Under the pieces are notes generated by a model, which worked only from the letters and a program-made list of their open reading frames with translations, ran no database searches and was not told where the DNA came from. From Patescibacteria group bacterium (lineage in GTDB: Bacteria > Patescibacteriota > Minisyncoccia > Minisyncoccales > UBA5738): a stretch of 64,000 bases of DNA. Shown piece after piece: positions 17,542 to 25,812 of the stretch (position 1 is the first letter of the stretch; every line of letters begins with the position of its first letter). Location: assembly GCA_022710775.1 (NCBI GenBank), contig JAKLGH010000002.1, forward strand, positions 76,707 through 140,706, read 5' to 3'. Made by a program: the position numbers and the translations under genes.

Positions 17542-19512
17542 ATGTTCAGTAAAAAAATTGTAGCCAGCATTTTGTGCTTGGCTTTAGCGGTTGCTTTAGT
17601 TCCCGGTGCCAGCCAGGCCGAGACAAGCGCTGCTGATCTTCAGAAACAGATCGCCGATTTGACGGCGCAATTGGCTGCTTTGCAGGCTCAATTGACCGGA
17701 ACAGGGACTGGAACTGCTACCACCGGAACCGCGGCTCCCGCTGCGTGCGCCGGCATCACTTTCTCCAGGAATTTAACAATGGGAGCCTCCGGCACCGATG
17801 TTAAATGTTTGCAAGCGTTGTTGAACCAGAGCGCCGATACCCAGGTTGCCGCTTCGGGCGTAGGATCGGCCGGATTTGAGACTATGACCTTTGGCGGATT
17901 GACCAAGGCCGCTGTCATCAAATTCCAGAACAAATATGCCGCCGAAGTTCTTACTCCGGTTGGTTTAACTATGGGAACGGGTTTTGTGGGCTCTTCAACA
18001 AGAGCTAAGTTGAACGCAATGTTAGCCGGAACAGGAACCGGAACAGGAACCGGAACAGGAACCGGAACCGGAACAGGCACCGGCACCGGAACAGGTACCG
18101 GCACCACCGGAACTTGCAATGGTGATGAAGGAACCATCGAAGTGAGCAGAAATTCTTCTCCCTCCAACCAAACGGTAAACGAAGGGGATGAAAAGGCTGC
18201 CATCTACGGTGTCAAGGTGAAAGCCGTTGATTCCGACATGAACGTTCAATCCATCAAGATTACGTTTGATGCGAAAGCCAGCGACTTCTTCTCCGACATT
18301 TACATCTTTGATGAAGATACCAAGTTGGCGACCAAGGAATTGGATTCCGACACCCTCACCGAGGATGACGGTCTCTATACCGTTTCTCTCACCGGCTTGA
18401 ACACCGTTGTGAAGAAAGGCGCTACCAAGGTTTTCACGGTTAAGGTTGACGTTGTTGACAGCATCAAATCCACCAAGGTGGATGTTGGCGCCGCCGGTAT
18501 CGATGTTTACGCCAGTGGCGTACGGGCGGTTGACGGCGTTTGCTTGAGCGATAACGTTACCGAGGACCAGGATGAAAGGACCGTTAAGGTCGAGGTTGCC
18601 GAAACTAACGAGGCCAAACTCACCTTCTCAAAGGATGAGAACACGCCCAAAGACCGCAACGTTGCGGTTGGTTCCACCGGCGATATGGACGATGTTACTT
18701 TGTATGTCTTCAAGGCGAAAGCCACCAAAGACAAGATTTCCTTCGAAGGTTTGGATGGAATTACCCTTACCGATGAAGGAGGCTTGGTGACCGACCTCGT
18801 CTTGTATGAAGGCAGCACCGAGTTGGCCAGCGGCAGCGAAGATGAAGGTGTTTGGAGCTTCGAGGATTTTGAGTCCGTGATCAGCGAGGATTCAACCAAG
18901 AGCTACACCATCAAAGCCAATCTTGAAAATGTTGAAGATGGCGCCACTTCCACAGTGAGCGTGGAATTGGACATCGACGATGCCAATGTTGACGCGGTTA
19001 ACACCGAAGATGACCAAGTTGATACCAACGACACTACGTTGACCAGCAACGAGATCTATGTCTATGAGACTGCTCCGGAATTCACTTTGTCTTCCGCCAA
19101 GCTCGAAGGCACCGATGCCAATGAAACCGTTGACAGCAAACTTGAGGGAACTTTCTCCATTAAGATCGAAGCGGTTGGCGGCGATATCTACATTCCGGCA
19201 ACGGATGATGATGCCTTCGACATTATCTACGTTAAGGCCGACGATACAGAGGATGATGTTACGACTGTTACTTCTTCCAAGCCCAGCGGTGTGACCGAGG
19301 TTACGGTTGATGCTGTTGACTACTATGTGGTCAGCGAAGACGATACCATTACCTTCACCGTTGACGGTATTGAAACAGGCGCTGACGGTACTTTCGACAT
19401 GCGCGTGTCCGGTATCACTTGGGGATACGGAGATAACGACGACGTCACTGAAGTCACGTCCACTTATATGAGCGATGACTTCAAGACCAACACAGTTACC
19501 GTTCAACAGTAG
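17542..19512 (+). CDS. Secreted cell-surface protein: signal peptide, coiled coil, peptidoglycan-binding domain, (GT)13 linker, acidic beta-rich repeats
   Basis: Signal peptide ends ...GASQA. PG_binding_1-like [16 protein letters not shown]...[17 protein letters not shown]. The long D/E/T/V-rich C-terminal region looks Ig-like. Confidence 0.7.
18028..18105 (+). repeat. Hexanucleotide microsatellite (GGAACN/GGCACC)x13 encoding (Gly-Thr)13
   Basis: Read directly: gga aca gga acc ... ggc acc, 13 units in frame. Confidence 0.95.
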
Positions 19513-20296: not shown

Positions 20297-22030
20297 ATGA
20301 ACATCGGGAAAGCGGTTATTATCAATTTGTTCGCGATTTATTGTGTCGCGGCTTTAGGTTTGGCTCCGGCCGGGGTTTTGGCCGATAACCTCGGAGATGT
20401 CCATAATTTCAATATTGATAAAACATACGATAGCAAGGGAAGGATAAAAACTTCCGCCCACTTGGCTGTTGAGACCGACAGACTTTATTTTTATGTTGAT
20501 GACGCTTGGTGGAATGGTTTAAACGTTACGGTACAAGGGAATTACAACAATGCGTTCGAAGAGCTGGGCAGGGAGTTTGACGATAATATTTATCTTATGC
20601 TTACCGATGTTTTCGGCAGCGAATCAAATCCGGCCGTTGATCAAGATGGAAAAATTACCATTTTGGTCCACCCGATGATCAAAGAGGCGGGCGGTTATTT
20701 CAGAGCGGCTGACGGATATTCTAAATACGAGATTCCCGTATCCAACGAGCGGGAAATGATCTATCTGAATTCCCGGCGGATGCTGTCGGCCAATATGAAG
20801 GTTTATCTTGCCCATGAATTCACTCATTTGATCGGTTTCAACCAAAAAGACATTATTCGTTCCGTTTCCGAGGATGATTGGTTAAACGAGGCCCGCGCCG
20901 ATTACAGCTCGGCAATACTTGGCTACGATGAACCTTACCGCGGCAGCAATTTGGAGCAGCGGGTTAATTATTTTATCGCGGATCCGCAGGATTCGGTTAC
21001 CGAATGGCTGAACGAGGAAACCGATTACGCATCGGCCAGCCTTTTTATCCGCTACCTAGTGGAGCAGTACGGCGTTAATATTATCGCCGAGACCATGAAA
21101 TCGGGAGAAACGGGCATACAATCTATCAACTCTTATTTAAAGAGAAACGGCTACTCCGAAGATTTTGACCAGGTTTTCGGCAATTGGCTGATGGCCGTTG
21201 CCGTCAACGACTGTTCTTACGGCTCCCAGTATTGCTATAAAGACCAATATTTAAGCGCGATTAAAGTAGCGCCAAAGATCAACTATCTTCCCACGTCCGC
21301 GGAGGCGACTCTTTCGGTGCTTTATAACGCCACATATTACGCTGGTAACTGGCAGAAGATTGTGGGAGGGAAGGGAAATTTGAATCTCGATGTTTTTGGT
21401 GATAAAAACGCAAAATTTTCGATCCGCTATTTTTTATGCGATATCCAGGGGGCGTGTTCAATGAAGACCCTTCCGCTTAACGCAGAGAATCGGGGCAATA
21501 TTTCCCTAAATAATTTTGATAAGGAATATTCTTCTTTAACCCTGGTTCCGTTCGTTAAGGGCGGCTCGAACGGTTTTAACGGAAAACAGCCGTTAATTTC
21601 TTATTCGTTCGCGATTTCCATGACAGGAGCCGGAGCCGAAGACATTCAGCCTCAAGATCCAAACCCCGGGCTGGCCCAATTGGTCGCGCGGATAGATTTT
21701 CTAAAAAAAGAGATTGCGCGCTTGCGTTCCCTCCTCGTTGCTAAAAAGCCTCTAAGTCAGGCCAGCTGTTCAAAAATTGCCATCGATCTGTCTTACGGGT
21801 CCAGCGGGCCGGAAGTAGCATGCCTCCAGGAGCTTTTAAAAGATCAGGGTTCGTCGATCTATCCGGAAGGCATTGTTTCAGGTAATTTTTTGGCGCTTAC
21901 GGAAAGCGCGGTGGTTCGTTTTCAGGAAAAATACGCTTCCGAGATACTGGCTCCCATCGGCTTGAGATCCGGCACGGGTTATGTTGGGCCAGCTACCCGG
22001 CAGACTATTAACCGCCTGCTGGCGGGATAG
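20297..22030 (+). CDS. Secreted gluzincin-like metallopeptidase (peptidase-MA-like) with coiled coil and C-terminal peptidoglycan-binding domain
   Basis: Signal peptide, HEFTH (HExxH) followed by WLNEARADY, and a C-terminal PG_binding_1-like module paralogous to that of 17542..19512 (RFQEKYASEILAPIGLRSGTGYVGPATR versus [28 protein letters not shown]). Confidence 0.6.
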   Translation: MNIGKAVIINLFAIYCVAALGLAPAGVLADNLGDVHNFNIDKTYDSKGRIKTSAHLAVETDRLYFYVDDAWWNGLNVTVQGNYNNAFEELGREFDDNIYLMLTDVFGSESNPAVDQDGKITILVHPMIKEAGGYFRAADGYSKYEIPVSNEREMIYLNSRRMLSANMKVYLAHEFTHLIGFNQKDIIRSVSEDDWLNEARADYSSAILGYDEPYRGSNLEQRVNYFIADPQDSVTEWLNEETDYASASLFIRYLVEQYGVNIIAETMKSGETGIQSINSYLKRNGYSEDFDQVFGNWLMAVAVNDCSYGSQYCYKDQYLSAIKVAPKINYLPTSAEATLSVLYNATYYAGNWQKIVGGKGNLNLDVFGDKNAKFSIRYFLCDIQGACSMKTLPLNAENRGNISLNNFDKEYSSLTLVPFVKGGSNGFNGKQPLISYSFAISMTGAGAEDIQPQDPNPGLAQLVARIDFLKKEIARLRSLLVAKKPLSQASCSKIAIDLSYGSSGPEVACLQELLKDQGSSIYPEGIVSGNFLALTESAVVRFQEKYASEILAPIGLRSGTGYVGPATRQTINRLLAG

Positions 22031-22114
22031 TTTTAGGGAATATCTTGATTAATCTTAAAAAGACACTAGTATCTAGTTATTATGCATAATCCTGGCTAAA
22101 ACAGGAATAAAACC

Positions 22115-23437
22115 ATGAATCTTTACGATCTGATCAAGAAAAAAAAGGCTAAAACCGCCATTATCGGAATGGGCTATGTTGGACTGCCTCACGCGCTGGA
22201 GATCGCCCGCGCGGGTATGCAGGTTTTTGGCATCGATATCCAGCAAAAAAGGACCAACCTGTTGAATGCGGGCAAATCGTATATCCAGGACGTCAAAGAC
22301 AGCGAGCTTCAAGAGATAATCGATGCCAGGAAATTCCAGGCTTTTGCGGACTTTTCAAAACTGGCCGAGGCCGACGTTATTATTATCTGCGTACCAACTC
22401 CGCTCGATAAATACAAAATTCCCGATGTGTCTTACATCGTTAATTCGGTCAATGAAATTAAAAAATATTTTCGGCCGGGCCAGCTGGTCATTCTGGAAAG
22501 CACCACTTATCCGGGTACGACCGACGAGGTGATTTTGCCGATTTTGCAGGAATCCGGTTTGAAGTGCGGCCAAGATTTTTACCTGGCGTTCGCTCCCGAA
22601 CGCATCGATCCGGGGAATACTATGCCGCTAAACGAGGTGCCAAAGGTTGTTGGCGGCATAACAAAGGAATGTACCGCTTTGGCTGTGTTGTTTTATTCCC
22701 AATTCTTAAAACACGTTCATCCGGTCTCAACCGCGCGCGCGGCGGAAATGACCAAGATCCTGGAAAACACCTATCGCCTCATCAATATTTCGGCGATCAA
22801 CGAACTGGCGATGCTGGCCGGAAAAATGGACATCGATATTTGGGAAGTGATCGAAGCGGCCAAAACCAAACCCTACGGCTTCCAAGCCTTTTATCCGTCG
22901 CCAAAAGTAGGCGGCCACTGTATTCCGCTGGATCCGTTCTATCTGTCTTGGAAAGCCAAAGAATATAATTTTTGGGCCCACTTTATCGAGCTGGCGGGTG
23001 AGATCAACGATCAGATGCCGCATTATACGGTAACGTCGGTGATAACGGCTTTAAACCGCCAAGGAAAGGCTCTTAAGGGTTCCAAAATCCTGGTTTGGGG
23101 AGTAGCTTACAAAAAAGACATCGATGATCCTCGCGAAGGCGCGGCTTACGACGTCATTCCTAATTTAATGAGAAAGGGCGCCCAAGTCGATTATTTTGAT
23201 TCCCTTATTCCGGAGTTCCGCATCCCGGCGGGCAATTTCATGTTGGGCAATTCGGATCCGATAATATTGAAATCCATCGAGAACGGCCTGGAAGCCGCTA
23301 AAAATTATGACGCGGTGATTATCCTTTGCGACAATTCCGGCTTTGACTATGTCGAGTTGGCCAAGAACGCCAGCCTTGTGATCGATACGCGGAACGCGAT
23401 CAAATCCCGCGAATTTAAAAACGTATACCGTTTTTAG
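22115..23437 (+). CDS. Nucleotide-sugar 6-dehydrogenase, WbpA/WecC-like (UDP-N-acetylhexosamine dehydrogenase)
   Basis: Rossmann IIGMGYVGLP and catalytic-Cys region VGGHCIPLDPFYL typical of the UDP-glucose/GDP-mannose dehydrogenase family. Operon context with WbpB/D/E/I-like genes. Confidence 0.8.
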   Translation: MNLYDLIKKKKAKTAIIGMGYVGLPHALEIARAGMQVFGIDIQQKRTNLLNAGKSYIQDVKDSELQEIIDARKFQAFADFSKLAEADVIIICVPTPLDKYKIPDVSYIVNSVNEIKKYFRPGQLVILESTTYPGTTDEVILPILQESGLKCGQDFYLAFAPERIDPGNTMPLNEVPKVVGGITKECTALAVLFYSQFLKHVHPVSTARAAEMTKILENTYRLINISAINELAMLAGKMDIDIWEVIEAAKTKPYGFQAFYPSPKVGGHCIPLDPFYLSWKAKEYNFWAHFIELAGEINDQMPHYTVTSVITALNRQGKALKGSKILVWGVAYKKDIDDPREGAAYDVIPNLMRKGAQVDYFDSLIPEFRIPAGNFMLGNSDPIILKSIENGLEAAKNYDAVIILCDNSGFDYVELAKNASLVIDTRNAIKSREFKNVYRF

Positions 23438-23499
23438 CAAGCAAGAACAGCAAGAAGAGCTGAAACAGCAAGAAAAGCGGGTAAGAGAGCACAGCAAAA
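23437..23499. repeat. Purine-rich 9-nt quasi-repeat tract (left arm of an inverted pair around a 4HB gene)
   Basis: Units are gcaagcaag aacagcaag aagagctga aacagcaag aaaagcggg ... . 23450..23472 pairs with the reverse complement of 23915..23936 (21 matches, 1 mismatch, 1 gap). Confidence 0.8.
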
Positions 23500-23522
23500 A
23501 AAATACAAAAAAATTTAAGAAG

Positions 23523-23876
23523 ATGATCAAGACGTTTAAAGATATCAGGGTATGGGAAAAGACGCATGGATTGGTATTGACGGTTTATAAAGTTACCGCT
23601 AAATTTCCCGAAGAAGAGAAATATTGCTTATCTAACCAATTGCGGAGAGCCAGTATATCGATACCTTCAAATATTGTTGAGGGTTTTAGAAGAAATACCA
23701 AAAAAGACCGAAATCATTTTTACGTCATCGCGAATGGCTCCCTGGAAGAAGTTAAATATCAATTACTATTGGCAAAAGATTTACGATATATCAACGATTT
23801 GAATTATGAAGAATTGGTCAAGCAAATGGATGAAGTCGGAAAAATGCTATCAGCCTGGATAAAATCCCAATCCTAG
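23523..23876 (+). CDS. Four-helix-bundle protein of the '23S rRNA intervening-sequence protein' family
   Basis: VWEKTHGLVLTVYKVTAKFPEEEKYCLSNQLRRASISIPSNIVEGFRR...IANGSLEEVKYQLLLAKDLRYI is the family signature as I know it. Confidence 0.85.
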   Translation: MIKTFKDIRVWEKTHGLVLTVYKVTAKFPEEEKYCLSNQLRRASISIPSNIVEGFRRNTKKDRNHFYVIANGSLEEVKYQLLLAKDLRYINDLNYEELVKQMDEVGKMLSAWIKSQS

Positions 23877-23914
23877 GTATTTTACTTTTCTCGCTATTCT
23901 AGCTAATTAGCTAA

Positions 23915-23948
23915 CTTGCTGTTCCAGCTTTCTTGCTTACTAGCTTAT
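23915..23948. repeat. Pyrimidine-rich tract (right arm of the inverted pair) plus dispersed repeat copy
   Basis: cttgctgttccagctttcttgc is the reverse complement of the left arm. 23926..23948 is 22/23 identical to 16481..16503. Confidence 0.8.
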
Positions 23949-23955
23949 CAAAATT

Positions 23956-24756
23956 ATGAATTACGCTATTATCGGTACCGGTTTTATTTTCCGCAAACAT
24001 CTCCAGGCCATTCGGGAAATCGGTGGCACGGTTGTTGACGTGTGCGATATTACCCACGGGCGGGGAGAGGAATGGAAAAAAATCGTCAAAAATCCGGAGG
24101 CGGATTGTGTTGTAATTCTCGCGCCCAATTATCTTCACTATCCGATCGCCTTGGCAGCCGCCGACGAGGGAAAATTAGTGTTGGTTGAAAAACCGCTGGC
24201 TTTAAAGTCGGAGCATGTCGAAGAACTGGCCAAAAGAAAAGATATCTTTATCGTCCAGCAGCTGCGGTATCATCCCGAGATCAAGCGGCTGGAAAAAGAG
24301 ATCGCAAAAAACAAACATCACGATATAAAAATGGATATCTCGGTTTATCGCGATGATCATTATTTCAACGGCTGGAAAGGCGATATTGAAAAATCCGGCG
24401 GTCCGCTTTTCACGTTGGGCGTTCATTATTTCGAATTATTGCTGCATTTGTTCGGTCCGGTGCTGGAGGCCAAGATGGATAAATTCGACGGAAAAACGGG
24501 TGTCGGGTTCGTCAAAGGTGCCAATTACGATTGCCAATGGCGCGTATCAGTGGGAGCCGCGATAAACGATCCTTGGAAGAGGGAATTCATTATCGACGGT
24601 GAAGCGATCAACCTTTCTTCAAAGGAAAATTTGGCCGAGGAAAACCTGCACCAGTTCGTTTACCGCGATTTAGAAATTAAGCAAGGAGTTGTTCCTAGTG
24701 ATGTTTTGCCGGTAATCAGGCTTATAGAAAAATTATATGGATCCCACCATTCATAA
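23956..24756 (+). CDS. Gfo/Idh/MocA-family oxidoreductase, WbpB-like (short form)
   Basis: N-terminal Rossmann [11 protein letters not shown], the VLVEKPLAL motif and operon context. Confidence 0.7.
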
Positions 24757-25375
24757 AACCGCTGAAGTTTCCTCCGAGGCCAAAATCGGCAACGGAACCA
24801 AGATCTGGCAGAACGCGCAAATTACTAAGGGCAGCGTTATTGGTGATAATTGCACCATTGGCCATAATTGCGCAATTTTTGGCGCCAAGCTTGGCAATGG
24901 GGTGAAACTTCAGGCCAATACCGATGTATGGGTTGGCGTGGTTCTGGAAGATTATGTTTTTGTTGGTCCGTCGGCGGTTTTTACCAACGACCCCAACCCG
25001 CGCGCCAAATATCCTAAGAAAGATTTTCCTCAATACGGGCAATGGCTGCCGACGCGGGTTATGGAGGGCGCGAGCATAGGCGCGAATGCCACGATTATCT
25101 GCGGCTCCGTGATCGGCAAATGGGCATTTGTTGGCGCGGGAGCGGTTGTGAAAGGCAATGTCCCTGACTACGCCGTGGTAGCAGGCGTACCGGCCAAACA
25201 GATCGGATGGATGTGCGAATGCGGAAGCAAGCTAGCATTTAAGCCAAGCAAGCCGGCTAAGCCTGTTAAGTTTATTAAGCAGGTTAAGTTAGAAATCAAA
25301 GAAACAGCAAAATGCTTGGTTTGCGGCAGGATTTACAATAAAAAAGACGGAAAAGTGGAGAAGATAAAGGAATGA
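24737..25375 (+). CDS. Left-handed beta-helix (hexapeptide) N-acetyltransferase, WbpD-like, with a repeat-derived insertion in its C-terminal Cys motif
   Basis: Hexapeptide repeats [32 protein letters not shown]... . The C-terminal CECG...CLVCG pair is split by [21 protein letters not shown], encoded by a 7 x 9-nt tract. Confidence 0.75.
25229..25291. repeat. Seven in-frame 9-nt TAAG-type quasi-repeats (left arm of an inverted pair around the second 4HB gene)
   Basis: Units are aagctagca tttaagcca agcaagccg gctaagcct gttaagttt attaagcag gttaagtta. 25264..25279 matches the reverse complement of 25789..25804 at 14/16. Confidence 0.8.
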
Positions 25376-25749
25376 CAAGTATGGGAAAAATTATTTCGTT
25401 TCATGATTTATCGGTTTGGCACAAGGCACATTGTTTGGTTTTGCAGGTTTATAAAGAGACAAAAGAATATCCCAAATCAGAGATTTACGGTTTAACAAGC
25501 CAAATCAGAAGAGCAGCTGTTTCCGTTGCTTCTAATATAGTTGAGGGATTTGAAAGAAAGAGCGCCAAAGATAGCCTCCATTTTTATAACATAGCTGACG
25601 GATCGCTCGAAGAGCTTCGATACCAATTACTATTAAGCAAAGATTTGTTTTATCTTGATGAATGTAAATATGCTGAATTGGTTAAACTGTCGGAAGAAGT
25701 GAGTAAAATGCTCAACGGCTGGATCAAGTCGAATCTCAAAAGTCAGTAA
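25372..25749 (+). CDS. Four-helix-bundle protein of the '23S rRNA intervening-sequence protein' family (second paralog)
   Basis: [53 protein letters not shown]...[26 protein letters not shown] overlap with the upstream gene. Confidence 0.85.
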
Positions 25750-25812
25750 ATTAAGTCTATTAAGTGTTTACTTAACAAGCTTAACTAACTTAAAAGACTT
25801 AACAAACTTCTT
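25750..25812. repeat. Intergenic spacer consisting exactly of seven 9-nt CTTAA-type quasi-repeats (right arm)
   Basis: Units are attaagtct attaagtgt ttacttaac aagcttaac taacttaaa agacttaac aaacttctt, immediately followed by the ATG at 25813. Confidence 0.85.

What the first reader, a model, noticed from the sequence alone, without database searches (positions are those of the whole stretch)
25229..25812. Four-helix-bundle gene no. 2 is flanked by symmetric 63-nt arms, each exactly seven 9-nt units, and the left arm is translated as part of the acetyltransferase
The left arm (25229..25291) is seven NNTAAGNNN units. The right arm (25750..25812) is seven NNNCTTAAN units that fill the whole spacer up to the next ATG. 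The two are reverse-complement flavours of each other, with best local match 25264..25279 against the reverse complement of 25789..25804 at 14/16. The left arm is in frame within the WbpD-like gene, where it encodes [21 protein letters not shown] and splits its C-terminal CxC...CxxC motif. The 4HB gene overlaps that gene's stop (ATGA). Together with cassette no. 1, this suggests a mobile or expanding module whose insertion has remodelled a host enzyme's C-terminus.
Basis: partly seen in the sequence, partly recalled or inferred. Interest (0 to 1): 0.75.

Follow-up and report, generated by a model that had tools for sequence, protein, structure and literature searches.

The report
Intervening-sequence gene cassette with nonamer-repeat arms
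A small four-helix-bundle gene of the kind known from ribosomal-RNA "intervening sequences" sits here between two sugar-pathway genes of a candidate-phyla bacterium, framed by 9-base repeat arrays, some of them translated in frame inside neighbouring enzymes. The same layout of gene plus inverted short-repeat arms turns up between operon genes in many other bacteria.

Summary
Both 63-nt segments exist. The left one is in frame in the WbpD-like acetyltransferase and is an insertion relative to most homologues. Only 5 of 7 left units and 4 of 7 right units carry the stated core. The right spacer is itself a small hairpin. Left/right complementarity beyond the shared TTAAG/CTTAA core is marginal.

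The gene is a PF05635/TIGR02436 four-helix-bundle ("23S rRNA intervening-sequence protein") cassette. It lies in the intercistronic junction of a Wbp-type UDP-sugar operon of a Paceibacterota genome.

In 80 unrelated metagenome loci, tandem repeats are 15-fold enriched within 150 nt of such genes. They are mostly period 7 and inverted between the two sides, purine-rich upstream and pyrimidine-rich downstream. None of the 40 loci scanned contains rRNA.

Parcubacterial relatives use the period-9 (T)TAAG/CTTA(A) variant seen here, and their arms are sometimes translated into neighbouring genes. Empty sites exist. The 4HB gene is much less diverged than the host genes around it.

The most likely mechanism, inferred by analogy with rRNA intervening sequences, is an RNA stem-loop that lets a selfish cassette be tolerated or excised. 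I file it as a new variant of a known kind.

The parts
23436..23522 (+). Cassette 1 upstream arm. Purine-rich GCAAG-type repeats (23436..23477) fill the spacer after the WbpA-like dehydrogenase stop.
   Evidence: TRF period 9, AGCAAGAAC. Inverted-repeat pairs with 23885..23942 at 84-93%. Pairs with the downstream arm in the minimum-free-energy and centroid folds, z = -2.85.
23523..23876 (+). Four-helix-bundle gene no. 1 (117 aa).
   Evidence: PF05635 E = 1.2e-39, TIGR02436 E = 1.8e-37.
23877..23955 (+). Cassette 1 downstream arm. Pyrimidine-rich CTTGC/GCTA-type repeats end at the ATG of the WbpB-like oxidoreductase (23956).
24737..25375 (+). WbpD-like hexapeptide acetyltransferase (212 aa). 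This is the host gene of the left array.
   Evidence: Pfam Hexapep. Homologues are named UDP-2-acetamido-3-amino-2,3-dideoxy-glucuronate N-acetyltransferase.
25229..25291 (+). Left array. Seven 9-nt units of (T)TAAG flavour, in frame, encoding [21 protein letters not shown] between the CxC and CxxC motifs.
   Evidence: Insertion relative to most homologues. Residues 175-184 have pLDDT below 50 between confidently modelled flanks. Codon usage shows a nucleotide-level origin.
25381..25749 (+). Four-helix-bundle gene no. 2 (122 aa from ATG 25381; 125 aa if read from the ATGA overlap at 25372).
   Evidence: PF05635 E = 7.9e-39. NCBI and JGI call the 122-aa form. dN/dS = 0.07 against the L004 copy.
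25750..25812 (+). Right spacer/arm. Two TTAAG units (25750..25767) are followed by CTTAA units (25768..25812) and fill the whole spacer up to the DegT ATG.
   Evidence: About 90% identical to the 3' part of the L004 spacer.
26164..26207 (+). Solo CTTAA-flavour array in frame inside the DegT/WbpE-like aminotransferase (KLNELKKLNQLNKLK).
   Evidence: About 8 aa shorter at this site in the L004 orthologue, present in L002. 86% identical over 42 nt to 27838..27879.
27026..27079 (+). CTTAA-flavour array translated as an N-terminal extension of the WbpI-like 2-epimerase (KLNKLKRLNKLKKLDGLK).
   Evidence: A 17-aa extension relative to L002, and PDB homologues align only from residue 23.
27785..27880 (+). 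Back-to-back TTAAG array and CTTAA array ('empty hairpin', with no gene between the arms) in frame inside the epimerase.
   Evidence: Inverted repeat of 42 nt at 71% and 32 nt at 78%. About 21-22 aa inserted relative to L002 and to PDB 8SXV.

Best explanation
The feature is an intervening-sequence-type gene cassette. A PF05635/TIGR02436 four-helix-bundle gene lies in the intercistronic junction between the WbpD-like acetyltransferase and the WbpE-like aminotransferase of a UDP-ManNAc3NAcA-type operon in a Paceibacterota (CPR) genome. A second cassette sits in the WbpA|WbpB junction.

Short-tandem-repeat arms frame such genes in many phyla. They are purine-rich upstream, pyrimidine-rich downstream, and inverted relative to each other. 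In this parcubacterial clade the repeat unit is 9 nt with a (T)TAAG/CTTA(A) core, instead of the usual 7 nt.

Shown:
- the family assignment of both genes;
- the repeat anatomy;
- the general association of these genes with inverted repeat arrays outside rRNA;
- that the arrays are nucleotide-level elements inserted in frame in three enzymes;
- empty sites in related operons;
- lower divergence of the cassette than of its host genes;
- strong purifying selection on the 4HB protein.

Inferred:
- As in 23S rRNA intervening sequences, the arms pair in the read-through transcript. The cassette is then looped out, and where the stem is long enough it is cut by RNase III. A promoterless selfish gene can thus sit inside an essential transcript with little harm.
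- Because 9 is a multiple of 3, arms and solo copies of arms can also survive inside reading frames as lysine-rich loops. This is the likely origin of the acetyltransferase segment.
- In cassette 2 the pairing has largely decayed. Its functional pairing partner, if any, is uncertain.
For: Family and context.

Repeats beyond chance.

Cassette 1 arms pair (z = -2.85).

Parcubacterial relatives all have period-9 TAAG/CTTA arms that fill the spacers. The L126 arms pair in the minimum-free-energy and centroid folds (z = -2.06). For fixed downstream arms, the cognate upstream arm gives the best duplex in 6 of 8 cases.

General pattern in 80 metagenome loci:
- own flanks are more complementary than cross-locus flanks (p = 4e-7);
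- tandem repeats reach 4.73 per kb near the gene against 0.31 per kb elsewhere;
- period 7 is dominant, and 14 of 17 same-period pairs are inverted;
- purine fraction is 0.66 upstream against 0.39 downstream (p = 3e-11);
- neighbours are about 77% co-oriented;
- no rRNA or other Rfam family was found in the 40 loci scanned (35 of these 80 plus 5 fetched separately);
- the hosts are operon junctions such as RuvA|RuvB;
- L181 has a 36-bp closing stem (z = -4.13).

In-frame arrays are insertions. They have aberrant codon usage and fall in a low-confidence loop of the model.

Empty sites.

Cassette identity is 0.89 in DNA with pS 0.40, against 0.66-0.73 and pS 0.64-0.80 for host genes. dN/dS is 0.07.

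Precedent: the Coxiella intervening sequence has an S23p ORF, terminal inverted repeats, tandem heptamers next to the ORF, and RNase III cleavage in the stem (PMC4990558).
Against:
- The left array is separated from the 4HB gene by 28 conserved acetyltransferase codons.
- The left array occurs without a 4HB gene in L002.
- Cleavage of translated arms by RNase III would destroy host mRNAs, so the RNA-excision model cannot apply unchanged to the in-frame arrays.
- No transcript, cleavage or mobility data exist for any non-rRNA cassette.
- Lower synonymous divergence of the 4HB gene could partly reflect constraint on its RNA rather than recent transfer.
- Period-9 CTTAA arrays are common in many genomes with no 4HB gene within the up-to-8-kb stretch fetched around each.
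Confidence: 0.6

Rival explanations
1. The repeat arrays are binding sites for the toroidal 4HB pentamer itself, on DNA or single-stranded RNA. Each gene would be flanked by its cognate repeats for autoregulation or packaging. Solo arrays upstream of or inside other genes would be further targets, forming a regulon, or would be traces of a protein-mediated copying process.
For: - Arrays are tightly linked to the genes (15-fold enrichment).
- Each locus has its own repeat unit.
- Solo arrays of the same unit occur nearby more often than across loci (7 of 59 against 5 of 295).
- In the window they sit at 26164, 27028 and 27786.
- The 4HB protein is under strong purifying selection.
- Homologous Avd proteins are described as accessory proteins of diversity-generating retroelements; that they bind nucleic acid and reverse transcriptase is my own knowledge (family match).
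- A preprint on Nostoc heptamer repeats postulates an unidentified binding partner (10.1101/2022.06.06.494920).
Against: - Proteins 57-75% identical are flanked by quite different units. This would require fast co-evolution of binding specificity.
- The inverted orientation and locus-specific complementarity are explained more simply by base pairing.
- On RNA the two arms are different sequences.
- No binding data exist.
Confidence: 0.2
2. The arrays are an independent, genome-wide class of dispersed short tandem repeats, like cyanobacterial and Beggiatoaceae heptamer repeats upstream of start codons. They would act on translation or transcription of the downstream gene. Their association with 4HB genes would be secondary, because both prefer intercistronic junctions.
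For: - Heptamer direct repeats that end next to start codons are described in the literature without any link to 4HB genes (PMC4679880).
- The right arm ends exactly at the DegT ATG.
- Many genomes have multi-copy period-9 CTTAA arrays with no 4HB gene nearby.
- Most non-flanking arrays in the 4HB loci are not next to another 4HB gene.
- L002 has the acetyltransferase array without a 4HB gene.
Against: - Independence does not explain the 15-fold enrichment, the inverted orientation, or the purine/pyrimidine asymmetry centred on 4HB genes.
- It does not explain why all arrays in this 64-kb window lie within about 2.2 kb of the two 4HB genes.
- It does not explain the arrays that lie in the middle of ORFs.
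Confidence: 0.13
3. The in-frame segments are protein features selected for function, such as lysine-rich linkers or coiled segments of the enzymes. The resemblance between the arms would then be coincidental or due to local replication slippage.
For: The segments are read through without stop codons and sit in permissive places: a loop of a Cys4 knuckle, an N-terminus, and an inter-domain loop.
Against: - Codon usage inside the arrays is fixed at the nucleotide level (AAG 11 of 11, CTT 16 of 17; p = 2.5e-6 and 4e-11).
- The same repeats fill non-coding spacers.
- Presence and absence among close homologues is patchy.
- Two arrays in different genes are 86% identical over 42 nt.
- The modelled loop has pLDDT below 50.
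Confidence: 0.04

Closest known systems
23S rRNA intervening sequences carrying an S23p/IVP ORF (Leptospira, Coxiella burnetii, Brucella)
   Same: - Same protein family (PF05635/TIGR02436).
- The ORF lies between complementary termini that form a stem.
- Tandem short repeats lie next to the ORF, with copy-number variation (heptamer GACAGAT in Coxiella).
- Regarded as a selfish element that depends on read-through transcription of its host.
- Excision by RNase III within the stem (PMC4990558).
   Different: - The host here is a protein-coding operon, not rRNA. No rRNA was found in the scanned window stretch (22000..29000) or in 40 related loci.
- The arms are 9-nt repeats with a TTAAG/CTTAA core.
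- Arms and solo arm copies are translated in frame inside enzymes.
- The stem of cassette 2 is weak.
- RNase III processing is untested.
Avd accessory proteins of diversity-generating retroelements (bAvd, PF22296 / NF033474)
   Same: Homologous four-helix-bundle fold. Both window proteins hit bAvd and DivGenRetAVD below the curated cut-off.
   Different: No reverse transcriptase and no template/variable repeat pair was found in the window. Scores are below the Avd equivalog cut-off of 80 bits (49.7 and 62.8 bits).
Rickettsia palindromic elements (in-frame selfish repeats inside conserved genes; my own knowledge, Ogata et al. 2000)
   Same: A nucleotide-level repeat inserted in frame at permissive surface sites of housekeeping enzymes. 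It is patchy among orthologues and is translated as an extra peptide.
   Different: RPEs are 100-150 bp unique palindromic sequences with no associated gene. Here the inserts are tandem nonamers linked to a 4HB gene cassette.
Heptamer direct-repeat arrays of cyanobacteria (STRR) and Beggiatoaceae (TAACTGA repeats)
   Same: Short tandem arrays that mostly end next to start codons. They are dispersed, lineage-specific and of unknown function (PMC4679880). Most arms around 4HB genes in other phyla are heptamers.
   Different: The literature I could read does not link them to PF05635 genes or to inverted pairs. Here the period is 9 and the arrays also lie inside ORFs.

Membership tests
PF05635 / TIGR02436 four-helix-bundle protein (23S rRNA intervening-sequence protein) | Match to the family profile above the curated cut-off | tested here: met
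   4HB#2 scores 132.6 bits against a cut-off of 33.8, and 4HB#1 scores 135.2 bits. TIGR02436 scores are 124.2 and 127.9 bits against a cut-off of 24.
rRNA intervening sequence (IVS) element | Inserted in a helix of the 23S (or 16S) rRNA gene | tested here: not met
   No rRNA match in window 22000..29000. The neighbours are Wbp-pathway protein genes. Forty related loci also have no Rfam match.
rRNA intervening sequence (IVS) element | Complementary termini that form a stem enclosing the ORF | tested here: inconclusive
   Met for cassette 1 (z = -2.85), for L126 and for L181. Not seen in the minimum-free-energy fold for cassette 2, where there is only marginal excess complementarity.
rRNA intervening sequence (IVS) element | Excision from the precursor transcript by RNase III | not testable with these tools
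   Needs transcript end-mapping or an in vitro cleavage assay. The precedent is in PMC4990558.
Diversity-generating retroelement (Avd component) | Adjacent reverse transcriptase and a template/variable repeat pair | tested here: not met
   A single-sequence search (phmmer) with one RT query found no RT among window ORFs. Self-BLAST found no TR/VR-like repeat pair. The Avd equivalog score is below its cut-off. The RT search used one query only, so it is limited.
Known anti-phage defence systems (PADLOC) | Match to a defence-system protein model | tested here: not met
   No PADLOC family matches either 4HB protein.
In-frame selfish repeat insertions (RPE-like behaviour) | Repeat absent from orthologues, defined at the DNA level, tolerated in frame | tested here: met
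   Insertions relative to homologues. Codon bias p = 2.5e-6 and 4e-11. Low-confidence loop in the model. This is a behavioural resemblance only; there is no sequence relation to RPEs.

The most novel reading that the evidence does not exclude
PF05635 four-helix-bundle pentamers may be the missing trans-acting partners, or the writers, of short tandem repeat arrays: heptamers in cyanobacteria, Beggiatoaceae and many other phyla, and nonamers in CPR. Each paralogue would be framed by, and specific for, its own repeat unit. Gene plus arms would form a self-propagating module that seeds solo arrays next to and inside other genes. This would tie together two old puzzles: the function of intervening-sequence proteins and the function of bacterial heptamer repeats.
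Probability: 0.15. Interest if true: 0.85.

Novelty: new variant of a known kind. Interest (0 to 1): 0.65.

Why it matters
Intervening sequences with an S23p ORF have been known in 23S rRNA since the early 1990s. Neither the element nor its protein has an established function.

The evidence here indicates that the same gene, with the same style of repeat-built inverted arms, is a widespread passenger of ordinary operon junctions in many phyla. Examples are RuvA|RuvB, hydrogenase subunits, ETF and Wbp sugar genes. In compact CPR genomes its arms use a 9-nt unit that can be, and is, read through as protein.

This gives three things:
- A concrete, testable model for how a promoterless selfish gene is tolerated inside essential transcripts.
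- A possible source for the unexplained heptamer and nonamer arrays of several phyla.
- A mechanism that adds lysine-rich loops to conserved enzymes.

I found no paper in the searchable library that describes the non-rRNA cassettes or their repeat arms. That is absence of evidence from a limited library, not proof of novelty.

Tried and rejected
- An array-first search of genome contigs for 4x CTTAA at period 9 gave more than 119 loci in many phyla. Canonical 4HB genes were absent from them. The exceptions were two CPR loci with 4HB plus 'suffix domain' proteins (L106 and L041). The CTTAA array alone therefore does not mark 4HB genes. The counts were 2 of 5 against 5 of 27, which is too few to decide. 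The link between period 9 and in-frame tolerance remains an inference.\n- Rfam search of the region found nothing meaningful.\n- PADLOC gave no hit.\n- Promoter and terminator scans showed no excess over shuffles, consistent with co-transcription but not proof of it.\n- Seven successful literature searches (one search failed) found the Coxiella intervening-sequence paper, a note on IVP genes between cas genes, and the heptamer-repeat papers. None covered non-rRNA cassettes with repeat arms. The Ralph & McClelland 1993 paper is not held in the library.\n- I considered integron attC sites, MITEs with target duplications, CRISPR-like arrays and DGR target sites, and rejected them. There is no integrase or RT in the window, the arrays have no spacer structure, and the arms are tandem units rather than unique palindromes.
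Full report
**Observation**

The stretch 25229..25291 is 63 nt. It lies in frame in the ORF 24737..25375 and encodes [21 protein letters not shown]. The spacer from the stop of the four-helix-bundle (4HB) gene (25749) to the next ATG (25813) is also exactly 63 nt.

The unit description is only partly right. The left units carry TAAG five times, CAAG once and CTAG once. The right segment starts with two TTAAG units, the same flavour as the left arm, followed by four CTTAA units and one CTTCT unit. It therefore contains a small hairpin of its own.

The quoted 14/16 match is correct. Chains of CTTAA at period 9 are far beyond chance: 20 matches against 0.01 expected.

Complementarity of the two arms beyond the shared core is marginal. 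The duplex energy is -26.5 kcal/mol against -19.0 +/- 3.4 for shuffles that keep the core, and 2% of shuffles do as well. In the fold of 25220..25820 the arms do not pair (z = -0.13).

The ATGA overlap exists. However, the family N-terminus (MxxIxTFxDL) and the NCBI and JGI gene calls of 122 aa favour the ATG at 25381.

The two arms are not a unique pair. The same arrays occur at three further places:
- 26164..26207, in frame in the aminotransferase;
- 27028..27078, at the N-terminus of the epimerase;
- 27786..27879, a TTAAG array followed directly by a CTTAA array, in frame in the epimerase.

**Context**

The window comes from a 184-kb contig of a Candidatus Paceibacterota (CPR) bacterium. 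Genes 22115..28195 form a co-oriented Wbp-type pathway:
- UDP-sugar dehydrogenase;
- 4HB#1;
- GFO/WbpB-like oxidoreductase;
- WbpD-like acetyltransferase;
- 4HB#2;
- DegT/WbpE-like aminotransferase;
- an epimerase whose best solved relatives are UDP-2,3-diacetamido-2,3-dideoxy-glucuronic acid 2-epimerases.

[quoted passage not shown] There are only two such genes in the window and no reverse transcriptase was found. Promoter-like and terminator-like sites are not enriched.

Cassette 1 has arms of a different flavour: GCAAG upstream and CTTGC downstream. They pair in the minimum-free-energy and centroid folds (z = -2.85).

**The arrays are nucleotide-level elements that happen to be translated**

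Most acetyltransferase homologues are 192-194 aa and have 2-3 residues where the window protein has the 21-aa segment. A patchy subset in two subfamilies has xxK-periodic inserts at the same loop between the CxC and CxxC motifs.

An AlphaFold model gives pLDDT below 50 for residues 175-184, between confidently modelled flanks.

The epimerase carries a 17-aa N-terminal insert and a 21-22-aa internal insert relative to L002 and to PDB 8SXV. The aminotransferase array site is about 8 aa shorter in the L004 orthologue.

Codon usage inside the arrays departs sharply from the surrounding genes:
- Lys is AAG in 11 of 11 codons of the TTAAG-flavour arrays, against 29% elsewhere (p = 2.5e-6).
- Leu is CTT in 16 of 17 codons of the CTTAA-flavour arrays, against 17% elsewhere (p = 4e-11).

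The aminotransferase array and the right half of the internal epimerase array are 86% identical over 42 nt. This points to copying rather than independent slippage.

**The same cassette elsewhere in Parcubacteria**

Close 4HB relatives sit in unrelated junctions:
- MreB|Fpg (L126);
- WbpA|WbpB (L208);
- AI-2E transporter|tRNA synthetase (L211);
- NiFe hydrogenase small|large subunit (L215);
- after a frameshifted group-II-like RT (L206);
- acetyltransferase|aminotransferase (L004), the same junction as in the window.

In every case the spacers are filled by period-9 arrays, (T)TAAG upstream and CTTA(A) downstream.

In L208 the downstream arm is translated as an N-terminal extension (MLKKLKKPNKL) of the oxidoreductase. 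In L206 the upstream arm is the C-terminus of the RT ORF.

The L126 arms pair in the minimum-free-energy and centroid folds (z = -2.06). Across eight such cassettes, the cognate upstream arm is the best partner of a given downstream arm in six.

Empty sites exist. L217 and L218 have the same operon with 7-8-nt junctions, a 192-aa acetyltransferase and no arrays. L005 lacks cassette 1 but has cassette 2. L002 has no 4HB gene but does have the acetyltransferase and aminotransferase arrays.

Comparing the window with the L004/L005 lineage:
- The host genes are 66-73% identical in DNA, with saturated synonymous sites (pS 0.64-0.80).
- 4HB#2 is 89% identical, with pS 0.40 and dN/dS 0.07.
- The 3' part of the right arm is about 90% identical.
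- The most diverged stretch is 25262..25405: the 3' half of the left array, the acetyltransferase tail and the 4HB N-terminus.

This fits a cassette younger than the split of the host operons, that is, lateral movement or recombinational exchange. Constraint on synonymous sites is an alternative explanation.

**The general pattern**

A scan of metagenome contigs with a 4HB alignment returned 80 loci with GC content from 42% to 67% among those inspected.
- Upstream and downstream flanks of the same gene are much more complementary than cross-locus pairs (p = 4e-7). Of own pairs, 26% fall below the 5th percentile of the control.
- The flanks are short tandem repeat arrays, and each locus has its own unit.
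- TRF arrays are 15-fold enriched within 150 nt of the gene (4.73 against 0.31 per kb). Period 7 and its multiples dominate; periods 8 and 9 are minor. Of 17 up/down pairs with the same period, 14 are inverted.
- Upstream arrays are purine-rich (0.66) and downstream arrays pyrimidine-rich (0.39), p = 3e-11.
- Neighbours are about 77% co-oriented, by a crude ORF method.
- None of the 40 loci scanned contains rRNA or any other Rfam family. These are not rRNA intervening sequences.
- Hosts include RuvA|RuvB, ETF-QO|ETF, an epimerase, FliD, a GGDEF protein and a Nuo/Mrp subunit.
- L181 has a 36-bp closing stem around the ORF (z = -4.13).
- Solo arrays are also frequent in these loci. They share the flanking unit more often than across loci (7 of 59 against 5 of 295).

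**Array-first search**

Four CTTAA cores at period 9 occur in more than 119 stretches of representative genomes. The genomes include Bacteroidales, Ignavibacteria, Nostoc, several CPR lineages and some archaea, and the same genome was often hit several times.

Canonical 4HB genes are not within these loci. Two CPR loci do encode 4HB proteins with the TIGR04258 suffix domain and carry CTTAAG arrays in and around the ORF. Saccharibacteria loci show back-to-back TTAAG/CTTAA arrays like window 27786..27879.

**What is known**

In Coxiella the 23S rRNA intervening sequence has these properties (PMC4990558):
- It carries an S23p ORF.
- It is bordered by terminal inverted repeats that form a 28-bp stem.
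- It is cut within the stem by RNase III.
- It has tandem heptamers (GACAGAT) upstream of the ORF, with strain-to-strain copy-number variation.

IVP genes have been noted between cas genes, for example between cmr3 and cmr2 (PMC3936711), and inside CPR rRNA insertions. Heptamer arrays next to start codons are described in Beggiatoaceae and Nostoc without a link to this family.

I found no paper describing non-rRNA cassettes with inverted repeat arms. The library is limited.

**Mechanism**

Shown: the anatomy, the family assignment, the association with inverted repeat arms, the in-frame insertions, the empty sites, the divergence contrast and the purifying selection.

Inferred: in the read-through transcript the purine-rich upstream arm pairs with the pyrimidine-rich downstream arm. 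The cassette is looped out and, where the stem is long, cut by RNase III, as in rRNA. The host transcript therefore tolerates the insertion.

The 9-nt unit of this clade allows arms and arm copies to persist inside ORFs as lysine-rich loops. Cassette 2 is a degenerate case. Its right arm is conserved together with the gene. Its presumed left partner lies 90 nt upstream inside the acetyltransferase, evolves separately and pairs weakly.

The main rival is that the 4HB pentamer binds the repeats. A second rival is that the arrays are an independent regulatory repeat class. A protein-level origin of the segments is excluded by codon usage.

**Verdict**

It is a new variant of a known kind (the intervening-sequence/S23p element), not a new category. 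Interest 0.65.

Noticed in passing
window 27785..27880: A TTAAG array directly followed by a CTTAA array, with no gene between them, lies in frame inside the 2-epimerase. It adds about 21-22 aa relative to L002 and PDB 8SXV. It looks like a gene-less version of the cassette arms.
   Followed up: partly
window 26166..26207 and 27838..27879: The solo arrays in the aminotransferase and the epimerase are 86% identical over 42 nt, which is more than the shared cores explain. This suggests that one was copied from the other.
   Followed up: partly
L087 3278..3364, L100 4124..4197, L109 1429..1508, L113 2069..2171, L014 5426..5500 (Saccharibacteria): Back-to-back TTAAG/CTTAA arrays occur with no canonical 4HB gene in the fetched locus. 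In L087 the units of the right half are the reverse complements of the left-half units but appear in the same order, so the pair is not a simple hairpin.
   Followed up: partly
L106 5801..6442 (Chisholmbacteria) and L041 1..450 (Daviesbacteria): Divergent 4HB proteins with the 'four helix bundle suffix domain' (TIGR04258) carry CTTAAG period-9 arrays inside and beside their own coding sequence.
   Followed up: partly
L206 1355..2504: A reverse transcriptase split into two ORFs (group-II-intron-like or DRT-like) lies directly upstream of a 4HB gene that is 74% identical to 4HB#2. The upstream repeat arm forms the RT C-terminus. No DGR features were examined.
   Followed up: partly
L158, L183, L215 (4HB gene positions): 4HB cassettes separate classic operon partners: RuvA|RuvB, ETF-QO|ETF, and the NiFe hydrogenase small|large subunits.
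   Followed up: partly
L208 4240..4290: The same acetyltransferase loop carries a different short insert (GRHPPTT), encoded by a CCACCCA-like repeat. The loop seems to be a hotspot for repeat insertions.
   Followed up: no
window 18026..18105: A (CCGGAA/CAGGAA)n hexamer array encodes a long (TG)n run in a 656-aa protein (17542..19512).
   Followed up: no
window 63011..63144: A perfect 53-nt tandem repeat (2.5 copies) lies in an apparently non-coding stretch near the end of the window.
   Followed up: no
window 14026..14084: A perfect 25-nt tandem repeat (2.4 copies).
   Followed up: no
window 820..915 and 1123..1218: A 96-nt direct repeat at 81% identity.
   Followed up: no
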